DNA of 64,000 nucleotides. It comes from a virus. This document shows positions 1-52,476 of the stretch, piece after piece. The stretch is taken from UHGV virus genome UHGV-0293664; one strand, written 5' to 3'. Within the stretch, counting starts at the first letter, position 1. Each line of letters opens with the position of its first letter. The translations under genes were made by a program, and so were the position numbers. The notes below the pieces were generated by a model. The model worked only from the letters and a program-made list of their open reading frames with translations. It ran no database searches and had not been told where the DNA came from.

Positions 1-1
1 T

Positions 2-625
2 ATTGGCCCAGATAAGACAACTCTTGACTTTGGGTTAAGTGATAATATTGGGGCGTTCGATGATGGTGGCACATCTACAGTGGATGCGTTCCGTTGGAGA
101 TTCCAGCCAACTCAGCCGGACATTAATCCAGAGTTCACTTTAATGTACCTGAACGCAATCACGGCTAATCGTGCGTTGTTGAAAGTGGTGGGCAATGTTG
201 AAGTTGTTGATAACATGCGGTGTAATAACCTCACCATTAGTAGCACAGCAACATTCACTAACTGCAATGTAGCCAGTCAGTTGACAGCTGGGTCAGTATA
301 TGTCAATGGCGGTGCAAGTTGTGATAGTATGGTTGTAAGAAGCCAGCATTGTGTTGTCGGTAACAGAAATGTGGTGCGCTCTGTGAATGGAGTGACGGCT
401 AACGGCAACGGCGATGTAACGATCACCATCCCACAGACAGGTGTACAGGATATCAGAATCGGTGCAAGACTTGTTGATGGCGTTTCTGAATCTCCAATCC
501 GCAACGGATACGTTGTCACAGGTTGGCATTTTGGTGACAAAAAAGAGATGCGTGGTTCAACTTACTGGGCAGGACCTTTACAAAAACTTGTAAATGGTCA
601 ATGGATCACTGTTAATTATGCATAG
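2..625 (+). CDS. tail fiber protein, C-terminal part (5' end upstream of window)
   Basis: Frame open from window start to TAG 623-625; last ~130 aa paralogous to C-terminus of ORF 1640-2683 (FRWRFQP, NAITANRA, KLVNGQWIT.NYA). Confidence 0.7.
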   Translation: MGPDKTTLDFGLSDNIGAFDDGGTSTVDAFRWRFQPTQPDINPEFTLMYLNAITANRALLKVVGNVEVVDNMRCNNLTISSTATFTNCNVASQLTAGSVYVNGGASCDSMVVRSQHCVVGNRNVVRSVNGVTANGNGDVTITIPQTGVQDIRIGARLVDGVSESPIRNGYVVTGWHFGDKKEMRGSTYWAGPLQKLVNGQWITVNYA

Positions 626-639
626 ATCGGAGGACTAGC

Positions 640-1224
640 ATGAAAATACTTCAAGAGTTTAAACTTTACCAACCGGGATCTGGCGAATACCACGCCAACA
701 AGGAAACCAAGGAGCTGACCCCTCAAGAGGTTGAGGACTACACCGCATACACTGGGTATTTTTTACGTAATGATGATGGCGATTGGTATGTGCAGTCACG
801 AACATTACGACAAGAAAATCCGGGTTGTATCTTCCTACTTGTTGACGAGAAAGGAATTCTTAAGACATCTACAGAAGAACCTGATGCCTTATGGCCTGCT
901 CCAGGTCTTCGTGTGGTTATCGCCAAAAAAGAAGAGGTACCAGAAAACATTATGCTTCACCACGACGCTTTGCGTTTAGTTGGTGATGAATTTGTCACAG
1001 ATAATGAATTCTTTGTTCAACAGGCAGAGGGTGTCATAGAGACAGAACTTGCTTGGGCTACTGCTAGACTTGGTGCCTATCAAGACATGATTGACCTTGA
1101 ATATGATCTTACTGATGACCAGAAACGTAACATCAGAGATTTGAAAATGTACAGGGTAAAACTTCTTGAAATAGATACATCTAAAGCCCCTGACATTTTC
1201 TTCCCGGAGCGACCTACCCTCTAA
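640..1224 (+). CDS. hypothetical protein between tail fiber genes (possible fiber assembly factor)
   Basis: 194-aa ORF; ATG 640 preceded by GGAGGA; starts 14 nt after upstream stop. Confidence 0.7.
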   Translation: MKILQEFKLYQPGSGEYHANKETKELTPQEVEDYTAYTGYFLRNDDGDWYVQSRTLRQENPGCIFLLVDEKGILKTSTEEPDALWPAPGLRVVIAKKEEVPENIMLHHDALRLVGDEFVTDNEFFVQQAEGVIETELAWATARLGAYQDMIDLEYDLTDDQKRNIRDLKMYRVKLLEIDTSKAPDIFFPERPTL

Positions 1225-1235
1225 GAGGAGGTGTT

Positions 1236-1550
1236 GTGGAGTTGGATTTGGCGGCATTGTACGGTATCTGTATGGGTACCGTTGTCCCGATCTGTGTATG
1301 GGCTTTCAACCAGTGGCACACCAAATGGAAAGGCATTTCCCAGAGGTTGGATGAACTGGAGAAAGACCTCATCTTAGTGAAAAATAGTATGGTTACAAAA
1401 GATAGACTTGATTCCGTTATCGAGACCCGGTTAAGCAAGCTAGAGGCCGATATTAACGACCTTAAGCAGGATGTCAGGACAGATGTCTCCGGCATCCGAG
1501 CTGATGTACAAAAGATTTTGCACATGCTCGTAGAGCATAGTAAAAGGTAA
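1236..1550 (+). CDS. small membrane/coiled-coil protein
   Basis: 104-aa ORF with GTG start after GAGGAGG; hydrophobic N-terminus then heptad-like region; terminator follows. Confidence 0.55.
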   Translation: MELDLAALYGICMGTVVPICVWAFNQWHTKWKGISQRLDELEKDLILVKNSMVTKDRLDSVIETRLSKLEADINDLKQDVRTDVSGIRADVQKILHMLVEHSKR

Positions 1551-1559
1551 ACAAAGGTC

Positions 1560-1595
1560 AGAACGGAAAGGACTCCGTTCTTGCATTTTGTTCTC
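1560..1595 (+). terminator. intrinsic terminator
   Basis: Hairpin GAACGGAAAGGACTCCGTTC followed by T-rich tract. Confidence 0.6.
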
Positions 1596-1639
1596 TAAAG
1601 TGTTAAAATAGTCCTAAGGAATTTTCTCAGGAGAACGCG

Positions 1640-2683
1640 ATGACTAAACCAGTTATCCCTCTTGATATTTGGGCCAATCAGGATGTTGTGCTTGAAAATA
1701 CGGGAGAGTTGAATAAATCTCAACCAAAAAAAGAAGAGAGATTGAAAGGTTGGGATATGACACAAAGAATGGCATGTGAAGTTGTTAACTTTGAACTTCA
1801 CATGCTTTCTGCGTGGTTGAAGCATTTAACAGAAGATGTTGTCCCAGGATGGGATAATAGATTCTTAAGGGTCACTAATAACCTAGCAGACGTTCCAGAC
1901 AAAGCTGCTGCACGTCAAGTTCTCAATGTATACTCACCTGAAGAAATGGACGATCTATATGTTGACAAGTCTGGAGACATAATGACTCAGACTCAAACTT
2001 TAGGTCTTCAAAGAATCGAGTTTGCATCTGCGTCAACAGACAGTGCGGCAATATACACCACCATAACTCCAGACAAGACGACGATGGATTTCTGGATTAT
2101 GGACAACATCGGTGGTGCTGACGGCACAGACCTTGATGATCCTTCTCACCAAATAGACGGGTTCCGTTGGAGATTTCAACCTTCTGGTGGGCAGCCTGTG
2201 TTTTCGGCTATGAAGCTCAATGCTATAACTGCCAACCGTGCAAGACTGGCTATCCAAGGAAATCTTGAATGTAACGATGCAAAAAGTTCCTCTGCAAATG
2301 CCAATGCGGTCACGATACCAAGAGCCACTGTTAACGGACAACAATCCTGCGGAAGCGCTCAAATAGGTGGAAGAGTTGATTGTAACGATGAAACCGTTAG
2401 GGGCCAATATGCAACCGTTGGTGGAAGAAACGTGGTCCGCAGGGTAAATGGTAACAGCGCAGACGGTAGTGGTAACCTTACTATCCCTATGCCTAGCAGA
2501 GGGGTTGATGATGTAAGGATAGCGAACCGTTTCAAAACCACCTACAGAGAGTCAAGAGTCTACCCTGGACATGTGATGTGCTCTGGTAACTACGCCTATA
2601 AACACCCTTATCAAGGTGATTACTGGACAGGTGCTATCCAAAAACTTGTAAATGGTCAATGGATCACTATATCTTATGCTTAA
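1640..2683 (+). CDS. tail fiber protein
   Basis: 347-aa ORF; SD AGGAGAA; C-terminal domain paralogous to upstream partial fiber gene. Confidence 0.8.
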   Translation: MTKPVIPLDIWANQDVVLENTGELNKSQPKKEERLKGWDMTQRMACEVVNFELHMLSAWLKHLTEDVVPGWDNRFLRVTNNLADVPDKAAARQVLNVYSPEEMDDLYVDKSGDIMTQTQTLGLQRIEFASASTDSAAIYTTITPDKTTMDFWIMDNIGGADGTDLDDPSHQIDGFRWRFQPSGGQPVFSAMKLNAITANRARLAIQGNLECNDAKSSSANANAVTIPRATVNGQQSCGSAQIGGRVDCNDETVRGQYATVGGRNVVRRVNGNSADGSGNLTIPMPSRGVDDVRIANRFKTTYRESRVYPGHVMCSGNYAYKHPYQGDYWTGAIQKLVNGQWITISYA

Positions 2684-2694
2684 AAAGAGGGTAA

Positions 2695-2961
2695 ATGAAA
2701 CTAACTCAGTTTTTATGGGGACTGGTTGCGGCATCTGATGACCCTACGAAAGTGTCCCAATCTAAGCTATGGTCGAACATAGGTATGGCGGTGATGACTG
2801 GGGTGTTTATTCATATGGGGTATAATGATACGCTTCCTGAATGGTATGCGTGGATATACGCGCCTTCAGTAGCTTGCCCCCAGCTTATTAGCAAATTCAT
2901 CTCGCTCCGGTGGGGTTGCCAGCACCCTGACCACGTTAAAAACGAAGAGCAAAAAGCTTAA
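2695..2961 (+). CDS. hypothetical protein (tail fiber associated)
   Basis: 88-aa ORF; SD AGAGGG; 11 nt after upstream stop. Confidence 0.6.
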   Translation: MKLTQFLWGLVAASDDPTKVSQSKLWSNIGMAVMTGVFIHMGYNDTLPEWYAWIYAPSVACPQLISKFISLRWGCQHPDHVKNEEQKA

Positions 2962-2970
2962 GGAGAAATC

Positions 2971-4716
2971 ATGGCGCAAGACATGACAAGCTTTGAGCAG
3001 GCGGTAGATCAAGTAATTGTTGATTCTGAACGTTTGCACCTGATTGTCAACGGTAACGCTGTGGATGAAGTTGTCGTAGAGGATGGGACCACCATCCCTA
3101 CGGTACGAAAAGCCATGCTTGACACCCTTTATTTTAAAACGCCACCGATCCCTTGGGCGTATGGTGCATCCACAACAGTTTTTAACCAGCTGTACGAGTT
3201 TAAGGGGGACACAGGCCCTCAGTGGTGGTACGCTCCCGCAGCATCAAAATCTAACCCGGTTAGAATGCCAGCAGATCCTTCACAATCTCCAAACTGGAGA
3301 TTATATACAGATTCTGCAGTAATGGCAAAATACTACGCAAAACTTAACAGTCCGAGGTTCGAAGGTGACCCGCGAGTACCGACACCTCCAATGGACGACA
3401 AATCCGAGTCTATAGCAAACACAGAGTTTGTTGTTGACTACGTGGATAGCATATTTGAAGCCATGGAGGGGATGAAAGTTACTGTAGGGTCTTTGGTGGT
3501 AAAAGGTCTTACAGAACTTGCTAACACCATAGTTGGTGGCACACTCACCCTACATGGGCCTGTTAATGGAGCAGATTCTACTGCACGCTTCAGGAACCTA
3601 ATCCTCACGGCAAACACTTCTACACTTACTTTTGCGTGGAGCGATCCTAAGCATGCAGACTGGAGAAGTACAGAGCTGCAGCCTCATGAAGTGTCCACCC
3701 ACAGGATTATAGCTGACACTATAACTTCTGGGAAACCAGTGGCTAATAATAACGATGTGCATTTTGATGGTCTAGGTAATAACTTTTTTGACTACGTGTA
3801 CATTCGTGGTAATGCCATGAAGGCAGCAACCGAACCGACATTGCAGGTAGATGGAACCACCAGGGTTAAGAACCTTGAGGTGACAGGTACTGTTACAGGA
3901 ATAACCTACTCTGTCGATGGCACCATGATCTACCCTAGCTATATTGAAAGCACGGGGGACGCATTAATAAATGGTGATTTAGAAGTTGGCGGATCTGTAG
4001 TTATTCGAGGTACAGCCTCTATCCAAAACATAGCTCTGAATACCTTAAGAGTCAATGAGCGTGCAACTTTTGAAGGAGAAGGGCTTGCAGCCAATAAAGG
4101 TACAATTACCGAGCTGACCACCACCACTCTAACTGCAACAACTGCAAACTCTGAAAACTGCAACGTTACCAGAAACTTGCAGGTAAATGGGGATGTTAGT
4201 TTAAACGCAGCAGGTACTGGCACCACCTACCTGCACAACCTTGAAATATCCGGCACAGTGACTGGGTGGCTGCCAGACTTCTCTAATGTCAACTTTGTTT
4301 GTAATGGCATTAACTCTAGCGGTAAGATAACCACCTCTCAAGGAATTGAAGCTGGTAAAACCATTACTGCCCCTACTTTCCACGCAGGGAAGGTAGATTT
4401 TGATTTAGAGGAGGTTGACGCGTCCAGTGGGACATGGACACCTAACGGGCAGGCCAGTATGTATGTTGTCCACGCGAAAGGGGATTTTACAATAGGACAG
4501 TGGCCTGGGACATCAGCGGAAGATAAACCTTATCCATTCACTGCAGTTATCTATGTAATTCAGGATGCTGTAGGTCACAACGTGACTTTGCACGATAAGT
4601 ATGCCATCCTGTCGGCAACACCTGTTATTAACAACAAGGCTAACAGTGTTACCTTGCTGCAATTAACGTATTGTGGTGTTGGTGATATTGTAGACGTAGT
4701 AATTGCACAACGTTAA
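2971..4716 (+). CDS. tail fiber/tail spike-like structural protein
   Basis: 581-aa ORF; SD AAGGAG; Thr/Gly/Asn-rich repetitive beta-type sequence typical of fibers. Confidence 0.8.
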   Translation: MAQDMTSFEQAVDQVIVDSERLHLIVNGNAVDEVVVEDGTTIPTVRKAMLDTLYFKTPPIPWAYGASTTVFNQLYEFKGDTGPQWWYAPAASKSNPVRMPADPSQSPNWRLYTDSAVMAKYYAKLNSPRFEGDPRVPTPPMDDKSESIANTEFVVDYVDSIFEAMEGMKVTVGSLVVKGLTELANTIVGGTLTLHGPVNGADSTARFRNLILTANTSTLTFAWSDPKHADWRSTELQPHEVSTHRIIADTITSGKPVANNNDVHFDGLGNNFFDYVYIRGNAMKAATEPTLQVDGTTRVKNLEVTGTVTGITYSVDGTMIYPSYIESTGDALINGDLEVGGSVVIRGTASIQNIALNTLRVNERATFEGEGLAANKGTITELTTTTLTATTANSENCNVTRNLQVNGDVSLNAAGTGTTYLHNLEISGTVTGWLPDFSNVNFVCNGINSSGKITTSQGIEAGKTITAPTFHAGKVDFDLEEVDASSGTWTPNGQASMYVVHAKGDFTIGQWPGTSAEDKPYPFTAVIYVIQDAVGHNVTLHDKYAILSATPVINNKANSVTLLQLTYCGVGDIVDVVIAQR

Positions 4717-4725
4717 TATATCTAA

Positions 4726-4750
4726 CCGCTCCTGACGGGGCGGTTTTCTT
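4726..4750 (+). terminator. intrinsic terminator
   Basis: ACCGC...GCGGT stem followed by TTTTCTT. Confidence 0.55.
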
Positions 4751-4764
4751 ATCTGGAGAACACA

Positions 4765-7700
4765 ATGCTTCCAATCCCTTTGCTAAAACTTGGTCGTCAT
4801 TTCCTCGATAAGAGGGGTGGAATTAAGGAACTTGCTGTTCTGTCATACCCAATAGACAACAGTGATGGCACAAGCACTACAGTATCCTATGTAAATAGTT
4901 TAGCTATACTTTTTGATGATGGTCAACTCAATATCACGGGCTATAACAGGTTCGGAGAGTGCCGCACTGGGGGTCTTGACACGATAAACTACCCCAACGA
5001 GGCTGCCTGGAACGTTGATCATGTGTGGAGAGCAGACCGTGCGTTTGTGATCCGAACTTTTGATAACCAGTTTTTCTACATCGGCTGCACTGCAGGGCTT
5101 ATTGGGTCTGATGCTGCAGGCGGTAATGATGTTTGTGTAAGAGAGTGGACACCTCTTCCTGAACAGATCGTTAAAGGGTTGCACCTTGACACCCACCCAG
5201 AGCGCCTTATTGAAGTAATGGGCGGTATTAACAACACTATCTGGGTTATTGCAGAGGCAGAAGGCACTGGCATACTTAACCTGTATGGATCTGGTAACAA
5301 CACCTACGGATCTTTGCATGTAGATAAAAATCAGCATGCAACCCCTGTAAAGATCGGTGAGACATCGGAAAATCCTGAAACAGGCCCTTGGAAAAACCCA
5401 AGCATCAACTGCGAGGTGCATGACAACTCTGTTATTTTCGGTGGTCCTAGAGGTTTCTGGATTGCTGGATACGACTTTCTGAGAAATAACAGTAGAAACG
5501 ATCTTGTTTGGCCTCCTGTGCAGATTACTCGTAACGATTTGAGGGGCATTCCTGCAGATGAGGAGTGGAAAGGGTTTATGTGTGGTCCTAACGGGGCAAT
5601 AATTGCCACACAGAGGATGCATAGACCCGATGACCAGCAGCTTGTTAACGTATTCTACGGGCAAGACGTTTGGGGAGATGACACATGGCGTTCCTTAAAT
5701 ATCACCTACACCCATGAGGTAATAATGGCTCGTGGGTACGGCACAAGTGGCATTTTCTTCAATAATGGCACTAAGCAGTATCGTGGATTCTCTCGCAACT
5801 TGTGTAATGATATTGGCGCACAATCTGCAAACAATAGCCCTAGGGCCAATTTTATCCACTATCAAGCTCTTGCTACAGCTAAATATGTTGAGCAACGCCT
5901 GCCAGTTAGCTGGACAGAGAGTGTTTATTTCCAAGGCATCCACAGGGAAGGTTTCTTAGGAACCTTTACTGTTGTTAATGGTAAACTTTGGTGGTCAGGC
6001 ATCCCAAGGGGGAGTTTTGCAGGCTCTAACAACCTGTTTGGCGGCAGACTTAATAGTCAGGGGTTCACAGAGGTTCCTGAGAATTGGTATAAAAATGTCC
6101 CAGTAGACAGTTGGGATGTTGATGATATTTTCGACGTTAACGGTGTTAGCAGCGTTAGCAATATTTACATTGGTGACACGGTCAAGATGAAATTGAAGCC
6201 TCAGCCAGAAGGGGCTACGTTCATTATTGACAAGATTGAACTGGTAAATGCTGCAGGCACGGTTGTTACAGATGCAAATTACCAATTCTCCACCAACTGG
6301 AACCACGGCGGGGCCAATGAAGTTGTTGTTACCCAGTATAACAGAAATGTTAACAGACGTGGCCTGTACTCTGTAAAAATAACTTATCATGACAAGCATG
6401 GCACAGGCAGAACCCATACGACAAGGACTTTGAACTGGAACACCATAGTTCCTGCGTATCCGTCTAACGGCAAGTGGCATACCGTTGGTAGAAACAAGCA
6501 GTTCCATGTTAACGATACTGTATACTTTGGGCTGAATGGTACTCAGCCTGCAGTAGAAGGTGATACATCATATATGGTCCGACTCCACAGAATGGATGCT
6601 GGATCAGTCACTTACGATGTTACCCAAGAGATTTATGATCAGAGAAGAAATACCTACAACAACTTGGTGCAGACACAGGCCGTATGGGAGTTCAACCCTA
6701 ACGGCAGAGGTGGTAAAATGTTGCAGGTTAACGAGCAAAACGGAACGTCGTTAACTGTCCACAAACACCCAGACCCTTGGCCTGATCCTGGAAAACCTCA
6801 CCCAGGCGCTCGTACGCTGAAAATTGTCAGCCATGATGTAGGATATTTCGGAATACGCTGGGAAGCTACAGTAAGGTATGCCGACGGGACAACAAACAAC
6901 ATAGGGATTACACTTGGTGGCACCAGTGAAGATAACTCGCTGAAAATTGCCTACACTCCTAGAGGTATATCTATTGACAATATGGATGTTGTTCGCAATG
7001 GTTACGGCGATGTGAATGTCAAAGTTACTCTTGGCGAACATCTTGGTGGGGAAAGGATCATCATGTATGCTTTTGATCATGACCCGCGTACCAACGGAAC
7101 TTATGCAAATCAGGCATGGAGTTACCTGATAAATGCACCTGGGCCGAATACTAAAGAGTTCTACTACGGCATGAAGCGAGATGTGTGCAAGAAAACAGGA
7201 ACACATGACTGGATTGCTATCTGCGTTAAAGATGAGCGCACAGCTTGGGATGAGCCTGTTAACAGATGGTTCATAGGTATTCCTACCAGAAGTGATAAGT
7301 ATGTCGCAGAATATATTGTATGCATGGGCGGTACCAACCTGAACATGTGTTGGAACGAGGATGCAAACAAATACTCTGATTATGACTATATGAGGGACTA
7401 CTCTTGTAATCAGTGGTTTAACCAATCAACAGGATACCCTCCACGTCAGGCGAGAGTAAACCCTGCAATCTTCACAGATACGCAGGTTTTCTTGACAAAA
7501 CAGGCCAACAAGGTTCAGACCTTCAAGAATAAATACGATCCTAACAAGTGGTTCTACAACTGTTACGGCGCATTTTTCTGGGGACCTGGTGAGTTACCTG
7601 GTGGAGGATCTTGCTTGAATGAGGCAACTTACGCCAGTGACTACATCATGGGGCAGGTCAAGAAGTATAAGATAATCCCCGGTCCTGAGACTCTGGGCAA

Positions 7701-43182: not shown

Positions 43183-43372
43183 CAGGTACTCGATCTGTTT
43201 TTCGTTTCAAAGATTGAATTTTCTGAAAATTTTTCTCGATAAATTTCTCAGTACTCGATCTGTTTTTCGTTTTCTGAATCGGATTTTCTGGAAATCGTTC
43301 CGGCTCTCGACCTGAAATTTTTGGGGACGAAATCGATTTTTCGTTTTCAGAAATGGATTTTTAAAATTTCTA
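43183..43372. repeat. degenerate tandem direct repeats (~65-bp unit, about 2.5 copies), iteron-like
   Basis: TACTCGATCTGTTTTTCGTTT at 43187 and 43252, partial third CGATTTTTCGTTTTC at 43333; GATTTTCTG/GAATTTTCTG sub-repeats. Confidence 0.6.
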
Positions 43373-43477
43373 TATGGGAATATTTTATGGGATACTGTTT
43401 TATAGGAAATTGTTACGGAGGGTAATTAGCGTGCTAATTAAATTTATGAAATGCGAGGAGTTCTCATTTAGAATTTT

Positions 43478-43700
43478 GAATGATAATCATTCTCGTTTGC
43501 AGAATAACGGGCACCCCCGGTGATTGTCTCCCGGCCCCTGTTGCCCCGGCTTGTTATTATAGTATCACACAGGACAAAGAAAGCAAGGACTTTTTGCATA
43601 AATTTTTAGACGATAATGATAATCGTTCTCATTTCATGCAGCGCCCATCCCCGGTGGTTGTCTCCCCCGTCACCGGTGCCTGCCGTCCTTTCGATATGTA
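43478..43700. repeat. tandem duplication (~120-bp unit) each carrying a GC-rich box ...CCGGTG(A/G)TTGTCTCCC...
   Basis: Both units start GATAATC.TTCTC.TTTC; boxes at 43510-43550 and 43641-43688. Confidence 0.6.
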
Positions 43701-43838
43701 TATTGTGCCACCTGGCGGGGCCGCTGTCAACACTTTTCAAAAAATTTTTCTAACCTGATGCGCTAACCGTTGCAACCTGGCGGGGCCAGCCTGGCAGGTC
43801 CGCGTTATAAAGTAAACAGCTACGGAAGAGGTACAAAA

Positions 43839-44838: not shown

Positions 44839-45243
44839 ATGAATAAGAACGTACGCCGCATCATGAACGAGTTGGCAAACGATGAAAAAATTATTGACAT
44901 GCATTTGATCAACATTTGCCGCCGTTGTGTAACATATAACAACCGCGCCGCAAAAGCGCGTGAGATGAACGCAAAAGGTACCTTAAAGCCATTCCAGGTG
45001 GTGGTAAAGGCCATTAAAGATGTAACTAATACGGCAAACCAGGTACAGGGGAACACCAACGAGAGTACCAATATTGATCCGTCTTACGTAATGAAACGGA
45101 TCCGGACTTGCAAGAATAAAGAGCAGGTGTATAACGTCATAGATTGGCTGGACTCCCTGGGTGATGTGGTTTACAATAGGTTTTCTGCAGCTATCGAGAT
45201 CCAGCTTGACAGATTAGACGGGAAAGTACTAAAAACTTATTGA
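44839..45243 (+). CDS. early protein
   Basis: 134 aa; SD AAAGGAAAAAGA; preceded by TTGACA box and GGCGGGAAnnTTCCCGCC leader hairpin. Confidence 0.75.
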   Translation: MNKNVRRIMNELANDEKIIDMHLINICRRCVTYNNRAAKAREMNAKGTLKPFQVVVKAIKDVTNTANQVQGNTNESTNIDPSYVMKRIRTCKNKEQVYNVIDWLDSLGDVVYNRFSAAIEIQLDRLDGKVLKTY

Positions 45244-45290
45244 GTTTATTTTTAGATGGCCTTGACTTCAGGGCCATCAATAAAGTAAAC
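45244..45290 (+). repeat. conserved post-stop hairpin element, copy 1
   Basis: TTTATTTTTAGATGGCCTTGACTTCAGGGCCATCAATAAAGTAAAC; 7-bp stem GATGGCC/GGCCATC. Confidence 0.6.
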
Positions 45291-45323
45291 TAACCACAAT
45301 TGAGCGGAAAAGGAGGCTTAAAG

Positions 45324-45443: not shown

Positions 45444-45471
45444 TTGACAAGCTAACCCAAATCGGTATACT
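45444..45471 (+). promoter_or_regulatory. sigma70-like promoter
   Basis: TTGACA-16 nt-TATACT. Confidence 0.65.
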
Positions 45472-45522
45472 TAAACACGTAAACGGGAAAACTTCCCAAA
45501 ACACACAAAAGGAGAAAACACC

Positions 45523-45864
45523 ATGACTACTATGACCGCCGAAGAAAAAGCCCTGCAGATCGCCGCTCTGAAAAAACAGATCGCAGACCTTGAGAATAAG
45601 ATCGATAACTTTGAAATCGACGAGGACAAGTACGACGAAAACTATGATGAATGGCTAGACGAGGTTTATGGCGAAATTATGATCGGAAACATTTCTTTTC
45701 TTCCGTCGCGTATCCTCAAGGAGTTAGATCCTATCGCTTACCGCTGCGGATTTAGCGACTACATCGACAGCCTGGATATTGAGGACGATGAAGAGTACCA
45801 AGAATTGCAGACAGAGATTGAAGAAGTGAAAGAAGAGCTTTCAAAGCTGGAAGAAAACGAGTAA
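45523..45864 (+). CDS. early acidic protein
   Basis: 113 aa; SD AAAGGAGAAAA. Confidence 0.75.
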   Translation: MTTMTAEEKALQIAALKKQIADLENKIDNFEIDEDKYDENYDEWLDEVYGEIMIGNISFLPSRILKELDPIAYRCGFSDYIDSLDIEDDEEYQELQTEIEEVKEELSKLEENE

Positions 45865-45912
45865 AATTTATTTTTAGATGGCCTTGACTCCAGGGCCATC
45901 AATAAAGTAAAC
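45865..45912 (+). repeat. conserved post-stop hairpin element, copy 2
   Basis: AAATTTATTTTTAGATGGCCTTGACTCCAGGGCCATCAATAAAGTAAAC. Confidence 0.6.
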
Positions 45913-45954
45913 TTTATACTGTTAACACTGAACTACTGCAAAGGAGTTAAAACC

Positions 45955-46200
45955 ATGGCAGCACTAATCACCAAGTATTATGCCCCTACTAACACCAAAA
46001 GCGCCCGTATCATGGTAAAAGGCTTCGGACGTAAAAAGGTTTACACCTGGGATTATGCCTTAGATACGGAAGACAACTACACCAACGCGATGACCGATTT
46101 TATTAATGAGCTGAACACGCGGATCTTGACAAATTATAAAATTACCGATATTGCCTATATAGGGGAAGGCGGGATCTGTTTTGTCGGTATCGTCAAATAA
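45955..46200 (+). CDS. early protein
   Basis: 81 aa; SD AAAGGAG. Confidence 0.75.
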   Translation: MAALITKYYAPTNTKSARIMVKGFGRKKVYTWDYALDTEDNYTNAMTDFINELNTRILTNYKITDIAYIGEGGICFVGIVK

Positions 46201-46275
46201 ACTATTTTTTCGGTGGTCCTGGCTGCAGGGCCATCTATAAAGATAATTTATTAACACCGTGAAAGGAGAAAGTAC

Positions 46276-47061: not shown

Positions 47062-47322
47062 ATGCGTAAATTAAAAAATTTTGATAAAGTCGATATTGTC
47101 CTGAATAATTTTTACTACTGCAATAATAAAGCCGTTTGGTGGCGTGATAGTTCCACCGATAAAGTTAAAGCGCGCTTTCTCCAGGGGCACTGGCAAGGCC
47201 GCCCAGTGATTAAGATCCTGGGGCAATCGGTAGCGTTTAAAAATTGCCGCCGTGTTGATGACGTTGAAGAGATTCTAAACATTTTACGCCACAATAATTT
47301 AAAAAATAGTGTTGACAAGTAA
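47062..47322 (+). CDS. early protein
   Basis: 86 aa; SD GAAGGAAGGAG. Confidence 0.75.
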   Translation: MRKLKNFDKVDIVLNNFYYCNNKAVWWRDSSTDKVKARFLQGHWQGRPVIKILGQSVAFKNCRRVDDVEEILNILRHNNLKNSVDK

Positions 47323-47339
47323 ATCTTGATAAGTATACT
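47312..47339 (+). promoter_or_regulatory. sigma70-like promoter
   Basis: TTGACA-16 nt-TATACT; followed by GGCGGGAAAACTTCCCGCC leader hairpin. Confidence 0.65.
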
Positions 47340-47396
47340 TAAACACACAGGCGGGAAAACTTCCCGCCACTAACAAAGAAAATAGGAGAAAATATC

Positions 47397-49409: not shown

Positions 49410-49610
49410 ATGAGCAACAATATCCGCGTTATTAACTTCAAAAAAGAAGAAAAAATTGCCGTGCTGATTGACGGTCAAGAAATCTTCAAGGGCGACTATG
49501 AAGATCATCAAACGGCGATTAGTATCACCCGCGTGATTGGTTACCATAATTTCTACCCCCAAGGTGCTGAGGCAGCAGTTAAACGAATCAAAGAGATTGT
49601 AGGCCTGTAA
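49410..49610 (+). CDS. early small protein
   Basis: ATG 49410 after AAAGGAGAAAC; 66 aa. Confidence 0.7.
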   Translation: MSNNIRVINFKKEEKIAVLIDGQEIFKGDYEDHQTAISITRVIGYHNFYPQGAEAAVKRIKEIVGL

Positions 49611-49658
49611 AATTTATTTTTAGATGGCCTTGACTCCGGGGGCCATCAATAAAGTAAA
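49611..49658 (+). repeat. conserved post-stop hairpin element, copy 3
   Basis: AAATTTATTTTTAGATGGCCTTGACTCCGGGGGCCATCAATAAAGTAAAT. Confidence 0.6.
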
Positions 49659-49702
49659 TTTAAACCCTGTTAAAATAATCAGTGCAAAAAGGAGTAATGA
49701 TC

Positions 49703-50911: not shown

Positions 50912-51145
50912 ATGATGGAACAAATTAAACGCGCTGAGGCTATTAATGGCAATGTGATCTACTTTGTCAGCAAAAACGAAAAAGGCGTACCATATGCGGC
51001 GGTAATAGTACAGCCTGACGGTGATTATTGGTTTACTGTGTACGGCGCTTATTCTTTCGGGCGTCCGGTGCATGATAGAATTTTGAAAGTAGCGAACCCC
51101 ACCGGGAAGAATATCACGGCAGAAAAATTTTTTGAAAATAATTGA
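50912..51145 (+). CDS. early protein
   Basis: 77 aa; SD AGAGAGG. Confidence 0.75.
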   Translation: MMEQIKRAEAINGNVIYFVSKNEKGVPYAAVIVQPDGDYWFTVYGAYSFGRPVHDRILKVANPTGKNITAEKFFENN

Positions 51146-51169
51146 CAACGTTTTAAATTAGTTTAAGAT
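51142..51169 (+). promoter_or_regulatory. sigma70-like promoter
   Basis: TTGACA-16 nt-TAAGAT then conserved GTATCACGTAGGG start region. Confidence 0.6.
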
Positions 51170-52326: not shown

Positions 52327-52372
52327 GCAGGCACCTGGCGACGGGGGGAGACAATCACCGTGGGTGCCTGTC
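52327..52372 (-). repeat. inverted copy of the GC-rich box found at 43510 and 43641
   Basis: GGGGGGAGACAATCACCGTGGG is the reverse complement of CCACGGTGATTGTCTCCCC-type box; flanked by CAGGCACC/GGTGCCTG. Confidence 0.6.
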
Positions 52373-52476
52373 ATGTAAGAACTATAAAAACCGTTGACAT
52401 CTGCCAGGGGGTGGGGTAACATTTATCTTGAAGGGGCAAAAGTGCCCACACAACAACCAGAAGAGAGGAAAACATT

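What the first reader, a model, noticed from the sequence alone, without database searches (positions are those of the whole stretch)
2..2683. Two tail fiber genes share a C-terminal module
The last ~130 aa of the partial fiber gene (2-625) and of ORF 1640-2683 are clearly homologous (DAFRWRFQP / DGFRWRFQP, NAITANRA, NVVR.VNG, and an identical end KLVNGQWIT(V/I)(N/S)YA), while the upstream parts differ. This fits modular exchange of a receptor-binding or chaperone-like tip, which would be the place to look for host-range determinants.
Basis: seen in the sequence. Interest (0 to 1): 0.4.

Follow-up and report, generated by a model that had tools for sequence, protein, structure and literature searches.

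The report
Two paralogous rV5-type short tail fibres
The two genes are the already described pair of duplicated short tail fibre genes of rV5-like E. coli phages, related along their whole length rather than sharing a swapped end, so the finding is real but ordinary.

Summary
The window comes from an rV5-like Vequintavirus, about 97% identical in DNA to more than 100 E. coli phages. It covers all 207 visible residues of the cut ORF, not about 130.

In near-identical relatives the cut gene is 346 aa. It aligns end to end with the 347-aa gene at 43% identity (E=7e-95). These are rV5 ORF33 and ORF30, published as paralogous short tail fibres in 2013 and 2021. Each has three parts:
- an N-terminal baseplate anchor, homologous to the solved phiTE short fibre;
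- a shaft;
- a phage Mu gpS-type tip.

A single Caudo_TAP chaperone gene lies between them. So "upstream parts differ / module exchange" does not explain this pair. Segment identities are all 40-49%, so the tip is no more alike than the rest. Synonymous sites are saturated.

One exception is new. A 30-nt stretch (581-610 = 2639-2668, QKLVNGQWIT) is identical in both copies. In a diverged relative both copies carry the same three synonymous changes there. In two more distant two-copy phages the tips are 88-92% identical, with a 110-nt exact match in one. This points to gene conversion between the paralog tips.

Both proteins are at least 95% conserved across the genus, so they are not a host-range hotspot there.

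The parts
2..625 (+). 3' part (207 codons plus stop) of short tail fibre paralog 1 (STF1, = rV5 ORF33, 346 aa in relatives). The first 139 codons lie upstream of the window.
   Evidence: Open to the window edge. phrog_4465 positions 140-342 of 342, E=6e-89. 98% identical to the EduardKellenberger 'short tail fiber protein'. rV5 ORF33.
443..622 (+). Mu gpS-type C-terminal tip domain of STF1 (aa 287-346 of the full protein).
   Evidence: The family profile matches Mu tail fibre protein S residues 439-503 (5YVQ), E=1e-14. 57-68% identical to the tips of Av-05, Seunavirus-like and phi92-like fibres.
581..610 (+). 30-nt patch (QKLVNGQWIT) identical to 2639-2668. Proposed short gene-conversion tract, copy 1.
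640..1224 (+). Tail fibre assembly chaperone (Tfa, = rV5 ORF32), the only one in the locus.
   Evidence: Pfam Caudo_TAP, 42.7 bits against a cutoff of 22.1, on residues 121-192. phrog_136, E=1e-35. Annotated as a tail fibre chaperone in relatives.
1236..1550 (+). 104-aa protein with a hydrophobic N-terminus and weak coiled-coil-type matches (= rV5 ORF31). Conserved after the chaperone in relatives with one or two fibre copies. Function unknown.
   Evidence: phrog_5345, E=2e-48. Weak Pfam matches to coiled-coil families. Synteny.
1560..1581 (+). Terminator-like hairpin in the 89-nt gap before STF2, the largest intergenic gap of the cluster.
   Evidence: 8-pair stem followed by TGCATTTTGT; sequence.
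1640..2683 (+). Short tail fibre paralog 2 (STF2, = rV5 ORF30, 347 aa).
   Evidence: phrog_4465 positions 1-342 of 342, E=1e-166. 99-100% identical to STF2 of many Vequintavirus genomes. rV5 ORF30.
1640..1894 (+). N-terminal baseplate-anchor domain of STF2 (aa 1-85).
   Evidence: Matches residues 1-83 of the phiTE short tail fibre (PDB 9CUY chain c): E=1.9e-8 with the single sequence, and whole-chain E=4e-36 (anchor stretch 1-86, E=2.3e-25) with the profile. In phiTE, residues 3-92 form the joint that docks on the baseplate wedge (PMC11972413).
2501..2680 (+). Mu gpS-type tip domain of STF2 (aa 288-347), divergent from every other known tip.
   Evidence: Profile hit to 5YVQ. Foldseek hit to 5YVQ_A, E=5e-8. 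Only 29-46% identical to other tips. The closest tip outside the genus is 43% identical.
2639..2668 (+). 30-nt patch identical to 581-610, copy 2.
2695..2961 (+). 88-aa membrane protein (= rV5 ORF29). Conserved neighbour of the cluster and not a chaperone.
   Evidence: phrog_1322 'membrane protein', E=3e-32. Also present in relatives with a single fibre copy.

Best explanation
The two ORFs are full-length paralogs of the Vequintavirus short tail fibre: rV5 gp33 (STF1, cut by the window edge) and gp30 (STF2).

Each protein has three parts:
- An N-terminal domain of about 85 aa that docks the trimer on the baseplate wedge.
- A beta-rich shaft.
- A C-terminal tip of about 60 aa of the phage Mu gpS type. 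Its trimerisation depends on a Caudo_TAP chaperone, and it contacts the LPS core (inferred).

The second copy arose by duplication in the common ancestor of the two-copy phages. It now sits where single-copy relatives carry a 157-aa membrane-protein gene. It has since evolved faster than STF1.

Both fibres, and the single chaperone encoded between them, are virion components according to published proteomics.

In the window lineage the tips have diverged, so the particle probably carries two LPS-core specificities (inferred). The last beta-strand (QKLVNGQWIT) is a family-wide structural element. In this phage it is also kept identical at the DNA level by short-tract gene conversion between the paralogs. 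The same process has homogenised most of the tip in related lineages.
For: Shown here:
- Homology runs end to end: 43% identity, E=7e-95, in a relative whose STF1 is 98% identical to the window fragment.
- Both match phrog_4465.
- Gene order is identical to rV5 ORF33-32-31-30-29-28 and to the BASEL phages.
- Two copies per genome occur only in Vequintavirus and in the metagenomic relatives L007-L010. Av-05, a Seunavirus-like phage, Mydovirus and phi92-like phages have one copy.
- STF2 occupies the slot of a 157-aa multi-pass membrane-protein gene.
- In the shaft (aa 86-286), STF1 and STF2 group together to the exclusion of all single-copy fibres in 199 of 200 NJ bootstraps.
- STF2 diverges faster than STF1: 78% against 87% identity to L007, and 51% against 72% to L009.
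- The anchor is homologous to the phiTE short fibre 9CUY (profile E=4e-36). The tip is homologous to Mu gpS 5YVQ (E=1e-14) and S/S' 8JU3. The only significant Foldseek hit is 5YVQ_A, E=5e-8.
- The chaperone matches Caudo_TAP above the Pfam cutoff.

Gene conversion:
- The 30-nt exact identity stands against about 34% identical codons elsewhere. P=1.2e-4 from codon usage; Fisher p=2.6e-4.
- In L007 both paralogs read CTG GTC .. CAG where both window copies read CTT GTA .. CAA.
- L010 has a 110-nt exact match inside the tip, and the L009 tip is 83-88% identical at the nucleotide level.
- The four L009/L010 tips plus P0005 form one clade in 196 of 200 bootstraps.

From the literature:
- rV5 gp30 and gp33 are 42.3% identical. 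Both, and gp32, were detected in virions. [quoted passage not shown] - The Vequintavirinae short fibre was seen by cryo-EM and resembles the Mu fibre tip (PMC12143355).
Against: - The N-anchor tree does not place STF1 and STF2 as sisters (0 of 200 bootstraps). STF1 groups with single-copy fibres there. STF2's anchor therefore either evolved very fast or has another origin.
- No chaperone gene follows STF2, and whether the one Tfa serves both fibres is untested.
- The AF2 model is a monomer of a trimeric fibre with mean pLDDT 68.5. Structural statements rest mostly on sequence-profile homology.
- Receptor specificities of the two tips were not tested and cannot be tested here.
- In rV5_ev147 one synonymous difference (AAC against AAT) lies inside the 30-nt patch, so homogenisation is not continuous.
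Confidence: 0.85

Rival explanations
1. One reading: two otherwise unrelated fibre genes acquired the same C-terminal receptor-binding or chaperone module by modular exchange, and this explains the similarity.
For: Tips do behave as exchangeable modules elsewhere in the family. In L009 and L010 they were exchanged between the two paralogs. The extreme 3' 30 nt are identical in the window.
Against: - Homology covers all 207 visible residues and the complete 346/347 aa in a 98%-identical relative.
- Identity is about uniform along the genes (40-49%).
- Nucleotide identity is about 50% with saturated third codon positions, and there is no step in identity at any module boundary.
- The core of the tip is among the least similar stretches (25-35% in 20-codon windows).
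Confidence: 0.04
2. These are whole-gene paralogs, but there is no gene conversion. The identical C-terminal strand reflects purifying selection on a structurally essential beta-strand, and the 30-nt DNA identity is chance plus codon bias.
For: The strand is conserved at the protein level far beyond this genus: Mu QKNINGTWYNV and phiTE QKKVNGVWVTI, Av-05 and Salmonella phage LVNGQWVTV. rV5_ev147 STF1 has a private synonymous change inside the patch. The patch is only 10 codons long.
Against: - The chance of 10 identical codons from this phage's codon usage is 1.2e-4. Enrichment over the rest of the gene gives Fisher p=2.6e-4.
- Outgroups encode the same residues with other codons.
- In L007 three synonymous substitutions are shared by both paralogs. 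That is the signature of concerted evolution, not of selection on a fixed sequence.
- There are long exact or near-exact tracts in the L010 and L009 tips.
Confidence: 0.1
3. STF2 is not a local duplicate. It was captured from another Vequintavirinae-like phage and inserted in place of the 157-aa membrane-protein gene.
For: - STF2 occupies a foreign slot.
- It is preceded by the largest intergenic gap in the cluster, which holds a terminator-like hairpin.
- In the N-anchor, STF1 groups with single-copy fibres and not with STF2 (0 of 200 bootstraps).
- STF2's tip resembles no other known tip.
Against: - Shaft monophyly of STF1 plus STF2 in 199 of 200 bootstraps.
- No candidate donor was found. 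Nothing lies between 60% and 90% identity in 50,697 phage records. In the 5.8-billion-protein search, every hit whose contig was inspected (P0002, P0003, P0004) is the STF2 of a two-copy phage, and P0005 groups with the L009/L010 STF2s.
- The long STF2 branches fit accelerated evolution after duplication.
Confidence: 0.12

Closest known systems
rV5 gp33 / gp30 short tail fibre paralogs with chaperone gp32 (Vequintavirus; Kropinski et al. 2013, PMC3606486; Maffei et al. 2021, PMC8594841; RBPseg class TC1, PMC12143355)
   Same: These are the same genes. Gene order and lengths (346 and 347 aa) are identical, with 95-100% protein identity. The paralogy (42.3% identity), virion presence, Mu-like tip and LPS-core receptor are already published.
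   Different: Nothing substantive differs. Added here: phylogenies resolved by domain, the 157-aa gene slot now occupied by STF2, and evidence for gene conversion between the paralog tips. I did not find these points in the papers I read.
Phage Mu tail fibre gpS / S' with chaperone gpU / U' (PDB 5YVQ, 9KI1, 8JU3)
   Same: The C-terminal tip domain is homologous (profile E=1e-14; Foldseek E=5e-8). A Caudo_TAP chaperone gene lies directly downstream of STF1. The receptor is LPS according to the literature. Two alternative tips are encoded per genome.
   Different: Mu expresses one of its two tip/chaperone sets at a time by inverting the G segment (PMC11915804). Here the two fibres are separate complete genes on one strand. 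No inverted repeats flank them, there is only one chaperone, and both fibres are in the virion. The N-terminal anchor and most of the shaft are not detectably homologous to Mu gpS, apart from a weak match of profile positions 76-186 to residues 151-256.
Pectobacterium phage phiTE short tail fibre (PDB 9CUY / 9MJN; Certrevirus, Vequintavirinae)
   Same: The N-terminal anchor of about 85 aa is homologous (whole-chain E=4e-36; anchor stretch E=2.3e-25). The last roughly 70 aa form the same tip type (i-E=4.6e-9). The anchor's role as a baseplate-wedge joint is solved for residues 3-92.
   Different: phiTE has one 554-aa fibre. Its predicted model has a long coiled coil and Ig-like domains, and the authors suggest it binds flagella. 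The rV5-type fibres are 346/347 aa with a different shaft, and they occur as two paralogs.
T4 gp12 short tail fibre
   Same: The functional analogy is a baseplate-attached short fibre that binds the LPS core for irreversible adsorption. Kropinski et al. reported HHpred probabilities of 98.4% (gp30) and 97.7% (gp33) to gp12.
   Different: No gp12 chain appeared in the HMMER profile search of the PDB at E<=1 or among the 50 Foldseek matches shown. The significant solved relatives are Mu gpS and the phiTE short fibre.

Membership tests
Vequintavirus short tail fibre family (phrog_4465; rV5 gp30/gp33) | Full-length sequence match to the family profile | tested here: met
   STF2 matches positions 1-342 of 342, E=1e-166. 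The STF1 fragment matches positions 140-342 of 342, E=6e-89.
Vequintavirus short tail fibre family (phrog_4465; rV5 gp30/gp33) | Conserved locus order: fibre, Tfa, 104-aa gene, fibre, 88-aa gene, 581-aa fibre | tested here: met
   Coordinates are identical in EduardKellenberger, rV5_ev147 and rV5. About 97% DNA identity over 5 kb in 111 records.
Vequintavirus short tail fibre family (phrog_4465; rV5 gp30/gp33) | Both paralogs incorporated in the virion | not testable with these tools
   Literature only: gp30, gp32 and gp33 were detected by mass spectrometry of rV5 virions (PMC3606486). Short-fibre density was seen in cryo-EM of Bas49 and Bas54 (PMC12143355).
Mu gpS-type tail fibre tip with Caudo_TAP chaperone | C-terminal domain homologous to Mu gpS residues ~439-503 | tested here: met
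   hmmsearch of profile A2 against the PDB: 5YVQ_A E=1e-14 (domain i-E=5.9e-9); 8JU3 E=1.8e-4. Foldseek of the AF2 model: 5YVQ_A E=5.4e-8, probability 1.00.
Mu gpS-type tail fibre tip with Caudo_TAP chaperone | Cognate Tfa (Caudo_TAP) gene immediately downstream of the fibre gene | tested here: inconclusive
   Met for STF1 (Tfa at 640-1224, Caudo_TAP 42.7 bits). Not met for STF2, whose downstream gene is an 88-aa membrane protein. Whether one Tfa serves both fibres is unknown.
Mu G-segment-type host-range switch | Alternative tip and chaperone sets on an invertible segment flanked by inverted repeats, with a Gin-type invertase | tested here: not met
   Both fibre genes are complete and on the + strand. 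No inverted repeats were reported in 1-3000. There is a single chaperone. The invertase was not searched for specifically.
   In the window lineage, protein identity is 40-49% in all segments, nucleotide identity about 50% and third-position identity 15-50%. Only a 30-nt exact patch stands out. The criterion is met in relatives: L010 has a 110-nt exact match, and L009/L010 tips are 88-92% identical against 36-47% upstream.
T4 gp12-like short tail fibre | Detectable homology to gp12 (collar / receptor-binding domain) | tested here: not met
   No gp12 chain at E<=1 in the profile search of the PDB or among the 50 Foldseek matches shown. No Pfam Collar hit on either protein. Published HHpred hits exist but were not reproduced with the tools here.

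The most novel reading that the evidence does not exclude
The two short-fibre paralogs form a self-editing pair. Recurrent gene conversion within the genome, seeded by conserved micro-homologies such as the 30-nt QKLVNGQWIT patch, moves tip-coding segments between the copies. Lineages would then shift between a bivalent state (two different LPS-core tips, as in the window phage) and a monovalent state (the same tip on two different baseplate anchors, as in L009 and L010). This would be an inversion-free counterpart of Mu's G-segment switch that acts on evolutionary rather than generational time.
Probability: 0.3. Interest if true: 0.4.

Novelty: already known. Interest (0 to 1): 0.2.

Why it matters
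rV5-like phages are among the most often isolated E. coli myoviruses and are candidates for therapy and biocontrol. Their short fibres mediate the irreversible adsorption step on the LPS core. Three points are useful for engineering:
- The pair are complete paralogs with separate anchors.
- One chaperone gene is shared by the locus.
- The two tips are divergent from each other but each is highly conserved across the genus.

This tells an engineer which segment to swap (residues about 287-346) and warns that this locus is not where natural host-range variation lies within the genus. The gene-conversion signal is a small addition to how duplicated receptor-binding genes evolve. None of this changes current understanding.

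Tried and rejected
- Low-complexity artefact: rejected. The composition-adjusted E-value is 2e-54 and conserved non-repetitive motifs are present.
- Pfam domains for the fibres: nothing above cutoff, only sub-threshold noise hits (bPH_11, Edc3_linker).
- Single-sequence PDB search with STF2: found only the phiTE anchor. The Mu tip needed a 59-sequence profile.
- Single-sequence PDB search with the chaperone: no meaningful hit, and Mu gpU was not recovered. The Caudo_TAP assignment rests on Pfam and PHROGs.
- AF2 monomer model: mediocre (pLDDT 68.5, pTM 0.38). TM-scores in Foldseek are low because a monomer of an extended trimer is not a globular fold, so only the local 3Di match to 5YVQ is used.
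- A donor for the divergent STF2 tip: none found. The best tip outside the genus is 43% identical.
- Allelic mosaicism of STF2 in L007/L008 (78% identity): rejected. All neighbouring genes are similarly diverged (78-90%), so this is a diverged lineage and not a swapped allele.
- Homology between the 157-aa gene of single-copy relatives and STF2: none by BLASTP.
- The first bootstrap script timed out. It was redone with a vectorised distance calculation.
- tRNA scan of the window: none found.
Full report
**What the window is.** The first 5 kb are 97% identical in DNA to more than 100 rV5-like E. coli myoviruses of genus Vequintavirus; 111 records cover at least 80% of the query. The gene order in the window is:
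- cut fibre, 2-625
- 194-aa Caudo_TAP chaperone, 640-1224
- 104-aa protein, 1236-1550
- 347-aa fibre, 1640-2683
- 88-aa membrane protein, 2695-2961
- 581-aa fibre, then a 1875-aa fibre

This order is base-for-base that of phage EduardKellenberger (Bas59), rV5_ev147 and rV5 itself. In rV5 these are ORF33, 32, 31, 30, 29, 28 and 27.

**Checking the observation.** The similarity is real. BLASTP of the 207 visible residues against the 347-aa ORF gives 44% identity, E=2e-54, with composition-adjusted statistics. All quoted motifs are present. The alignment starts at the first visible residue, so the homologous stretch is limited by the window edge and not by a module boundary.

In EduardKellenberger the first gene is 98% identical to the window fragment. 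That gene is 346 aa and aligns from Met1 to the last residue with the 347-aa gene: 43% identity, E=7e-95. Both proteins match the same PHROG over its full length (phrog_4465). Identity by segment is 40% (aa 1-85), 48% (86-139), 49% (140-286) and 44% (287-346). Nucleotide identity is about 50% throughout, and third-position identity is mostly 15-50%. So the claim that "the upstream parts differ" is wrong. These are whole-gene paralogs of considerable age.

**Anatomy.** I built a 59-sequence profile of the family from two searches of the 5.8-billion-protein collection. Searched against the PDB, it gives two informative matches:
- Residues 1-86 match the N-terminus of the phiTE short tail fibre (9CUY; E=4e-36 for the whole chain, E=2.3e-25 for the anchor stretch). 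Residues 3-92 of that fibre were modelled as the globular joint that docks on the baseplate wedge (PMC11972413).
- The last roughly 65 residues match residues 439-503 of Mu tail fibre protein S (5YVQ, E=1e-14), the S/S' chimera (8JU3), and the C-terminus of the phiTE fibre.

An AF2 monomer model is only moderate (pLDDT 68.5). Its single significant Foldseek hit in the PDB is 5YVQ_A, E=5e-8. The gene after the first fibre is a Caudo_TAP chaperone above the Pfam cutoff. Each fibre is therefore an anchor, a shaft and a Mu-S-type tip, and the locus carries one chaperone.

**Origin of the second copy.** tblastn across 50,697 phage records finds two places per genome only in Vequintavirus. Av-05 (Avunavirus), a Seunavirus-like Salmonella phage, Klebsiella Mydovirus and phi92-like phages have one copy. 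In three of these single-copy relatives the order is fibre, Tfa, 104-aa gene, 157-aa multi-pass membrane protein, 88-aa gene, 581-aa fibre. The window's second fibre therefore occupies the slot of the 157-aa gene. That gene is not homologous to it.

Metagenomic contigs L007/L008 (all genes 78-90% identical to the window type) and L009/L010 (47-72%) also carry two copies. The duplication is therefore older than the genus as currently sampled. STF2 diverges faster than STF1: 78% against 87% identity in L007, and 51% against 72% in L009.

NJ bootstraps by domain give three different pictures:
- In the shaft, STF1 and STF2 together exclude all single-copy fibres (199 of 200). This supports a lineage-specific duplication.
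- In the anchor, STF1 and STF2 are each monophyletic (199 and 198 of 200) but are not sisters (0 of 200). STF1 sits with the single-copy fibres by pairwise identity (58-62% against 40% to STF2), so STF2's anchor either evolved fast or has another source.
- In the tip, the four sequences from L009 and L010 plus P0005 form one clade (196 of 200), regardless of paralog.

**Gene conversion.** In L009 and L010 the two tips within one genome are 88-92% identical, while the upstream parts are 36-47% identical. L010 has a 110-nt exact match inside the tip, and the L009 tip is 83-88% identical in DNA.

In the window lineage the tips are only about 42-44% identical. The longest exact DNA match between the genes is 30 nt, at 581-610 and 2639-2668. 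It encodes QKLVNGQWIT and lies inside a 63-nt, 84%-identical repeat.
- From the phage's own codon usage, ten identical codons have probability 1.2e-4. Against the 34% identical codons elsewhere in the gene pair, Fisher p=2.6e-4.
- Outgroups encode the same residues with different codons.
- In L007 both paralogs read CTG GTC .. CAG where both window copies read CTT GTA .. CAA. Synonymous changes shared by the paralogs within a genome but differing between genomes indicate concerted evolution, not selection on a fixed nucleotide sequence.

I therefore read the identical end as two things at once. It is a family-wide structural strand, also conserved in Mu and phiTE. It is also a short gene-conversion tract.

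**Is it a host-range hotspot?** Not within the genus. STF2 is at least 95% identical in 116 of 117 Vequintavirus records. Its tip is at least 99% identical in 93 records and 95-99% in 23. STF1 shows the same distribution. Between the window type and L007 the tip is the best-conserved segment of both paralogs (92-93%), and aa 201-286 the least conserved (69-77%). This fits a conserved LPS-core receptor, as argued in PMC8594841.

At deeper levels the tip is modular:
- Mydovirus fibres share residues 1-291 but have another tip.
- phi92-like fibres share the anchor and tip but not the shaft.
- 52-kb Salmonella/E. coli myophages share only the tip, at 59% identity.

**What is already known.**
- Kropinski et al. 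2013 reported that rV5 gp30 (347 aa) and the similarly sized gp33 are 42.3% identical. They detected both, together with gp32, in virions, and proposed that two LPS chemotypes may be recognised (PMC3606486).
- Maffei et al. [quoted passage not shown] They noted the lack of allelic variation, the homology to Mu GpS/GpU, and the terminal receptor in the LPS outer core (PMC8594841).
- The RBPseg study saw the short-fibre density by cryo-EM in Bas49 and Bas54 and noted the Mu-like tip and its probable need for a Tfa (PMC12143355).

The finding itself is therefore already known.

**Mechanism, with shown and inferred steps marked.**
- Shown: paralogy, domain homologies, synteny, the conservation pattern and the conversion signatures.
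- From the literature: virion incorporation, LPS-core dependence, and the modular action of Tfa. In that model the variable N-terminal domain of the chaperone binds the fibre and the conserved C-terminal helices drive trimerisation (PMC9608196).
- Inferred: both fibres dock on the baseplate wedges through their anchors. The one Tfa folds both tips by recognising the conserved tip framework. The diverged tip cores give the virion two LPS-core specificities.

**Verdict.** The finding is already known and of low interest (0.2).

Noticed in passing
window 1640-2683, compared with L003 5949-6422, L004 5997-6470 and L006 5838-6311: In single-copy relatives (Av-05, a Seunavirus-like Salmonella phage, Klebsiella Mydovirus) the slot held by the second fibre gene in the window contains a conserved 157-aa multi-pass membrane-protein gene. 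That gene is unrelated to the fibre. Two-copy phages lack it at this position.
   Followed up: partly
window 1551-1639 (hairpin 1560-1581): The 89-nt gap before the second fibre gene is the largest intergenic gap of the cluster. It contains a terminator-like hairpin (AGAACGGA..TCCGTTCT followed by a T-rich tail). The two fibre genes may therefore be expressed at different levels.
   Followed up: no
window 1236-1550 and 2695-2961: Two small conserved genes travel with the fibre/chaperone cassette in the Vequintavirinae relatives examined. One encodes a 104-aa protein with a hydrophobic N-terminus and weak coiled-coil-type matches (phrog_5345). The other encodes an 88-aa membrane protein (phrog_1322). 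A 113-aa gene in the same position follows the chaperone in phi92-like muut, but BLASTP found no similarity to the 104-aa protein. Their function is unknown.
   Followed up: no
L009 and L010 (metagenomic contigs SRR24653873_3258 and KUNK20-1 scaffold_729), fibre genes at 2913-3953 / 5001-6065 and 2921-3961 / 5001-6056: These are divergent two-copy phages, 47-72% identical in protein to the window type. The tips of their two fibres have been homogenised: 88-92% protein identity and a 110-nt exact match in L010. Their chaperone is only 47% identical to the window's chaperone.
   Followed up: yes
phage database hits to window 1-5000: 16 to 21 records named 'Campylobacter phage' with host Campylobacter jejuni (for example C2, A12a, D#) are about 97% identical in DNA to E. 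coli rV5-like phages across this locus. This looks like mislabelled or contaminant isolates rather than a true host jump.
   Followed up: no
window 45232-45291, 45854-45913, 46189-46248, 49600-49659; also 45444-45509 and 47312-47377: A 60-nt element is repeated four times. It contains a GC-rich hairpin (GGCCTTGACT.CAGGGCC) followed by ATCAATAAAGTAAACT. Two copies of a near-consensus promoter-like unit (TTGACAAG ... TATACT) are also present. These are probably repeated regulatory cassettes of the early region.
   Followed up: no
window 43186-43374: Three closely spaced copies (65-74 nt apart) of a 50-nt AT-rich repeat (GTACTCGATCTGTTTTTCGTTT...). They lie near long-range inverted repeats at 43504-43532 / 52346-52374 and 43722-43772 / 51100-51150. 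This could be an origin or a regulatory region.
   Followed up: no
window 2971-4716: In relatives, the 581-aa fibre downstream carries the Pfam families Phage_phiTE_241_N and Phage_phiTE_241_C. This links another fibre of the cluster to a protein family named after phiTE.
   Followed up: no
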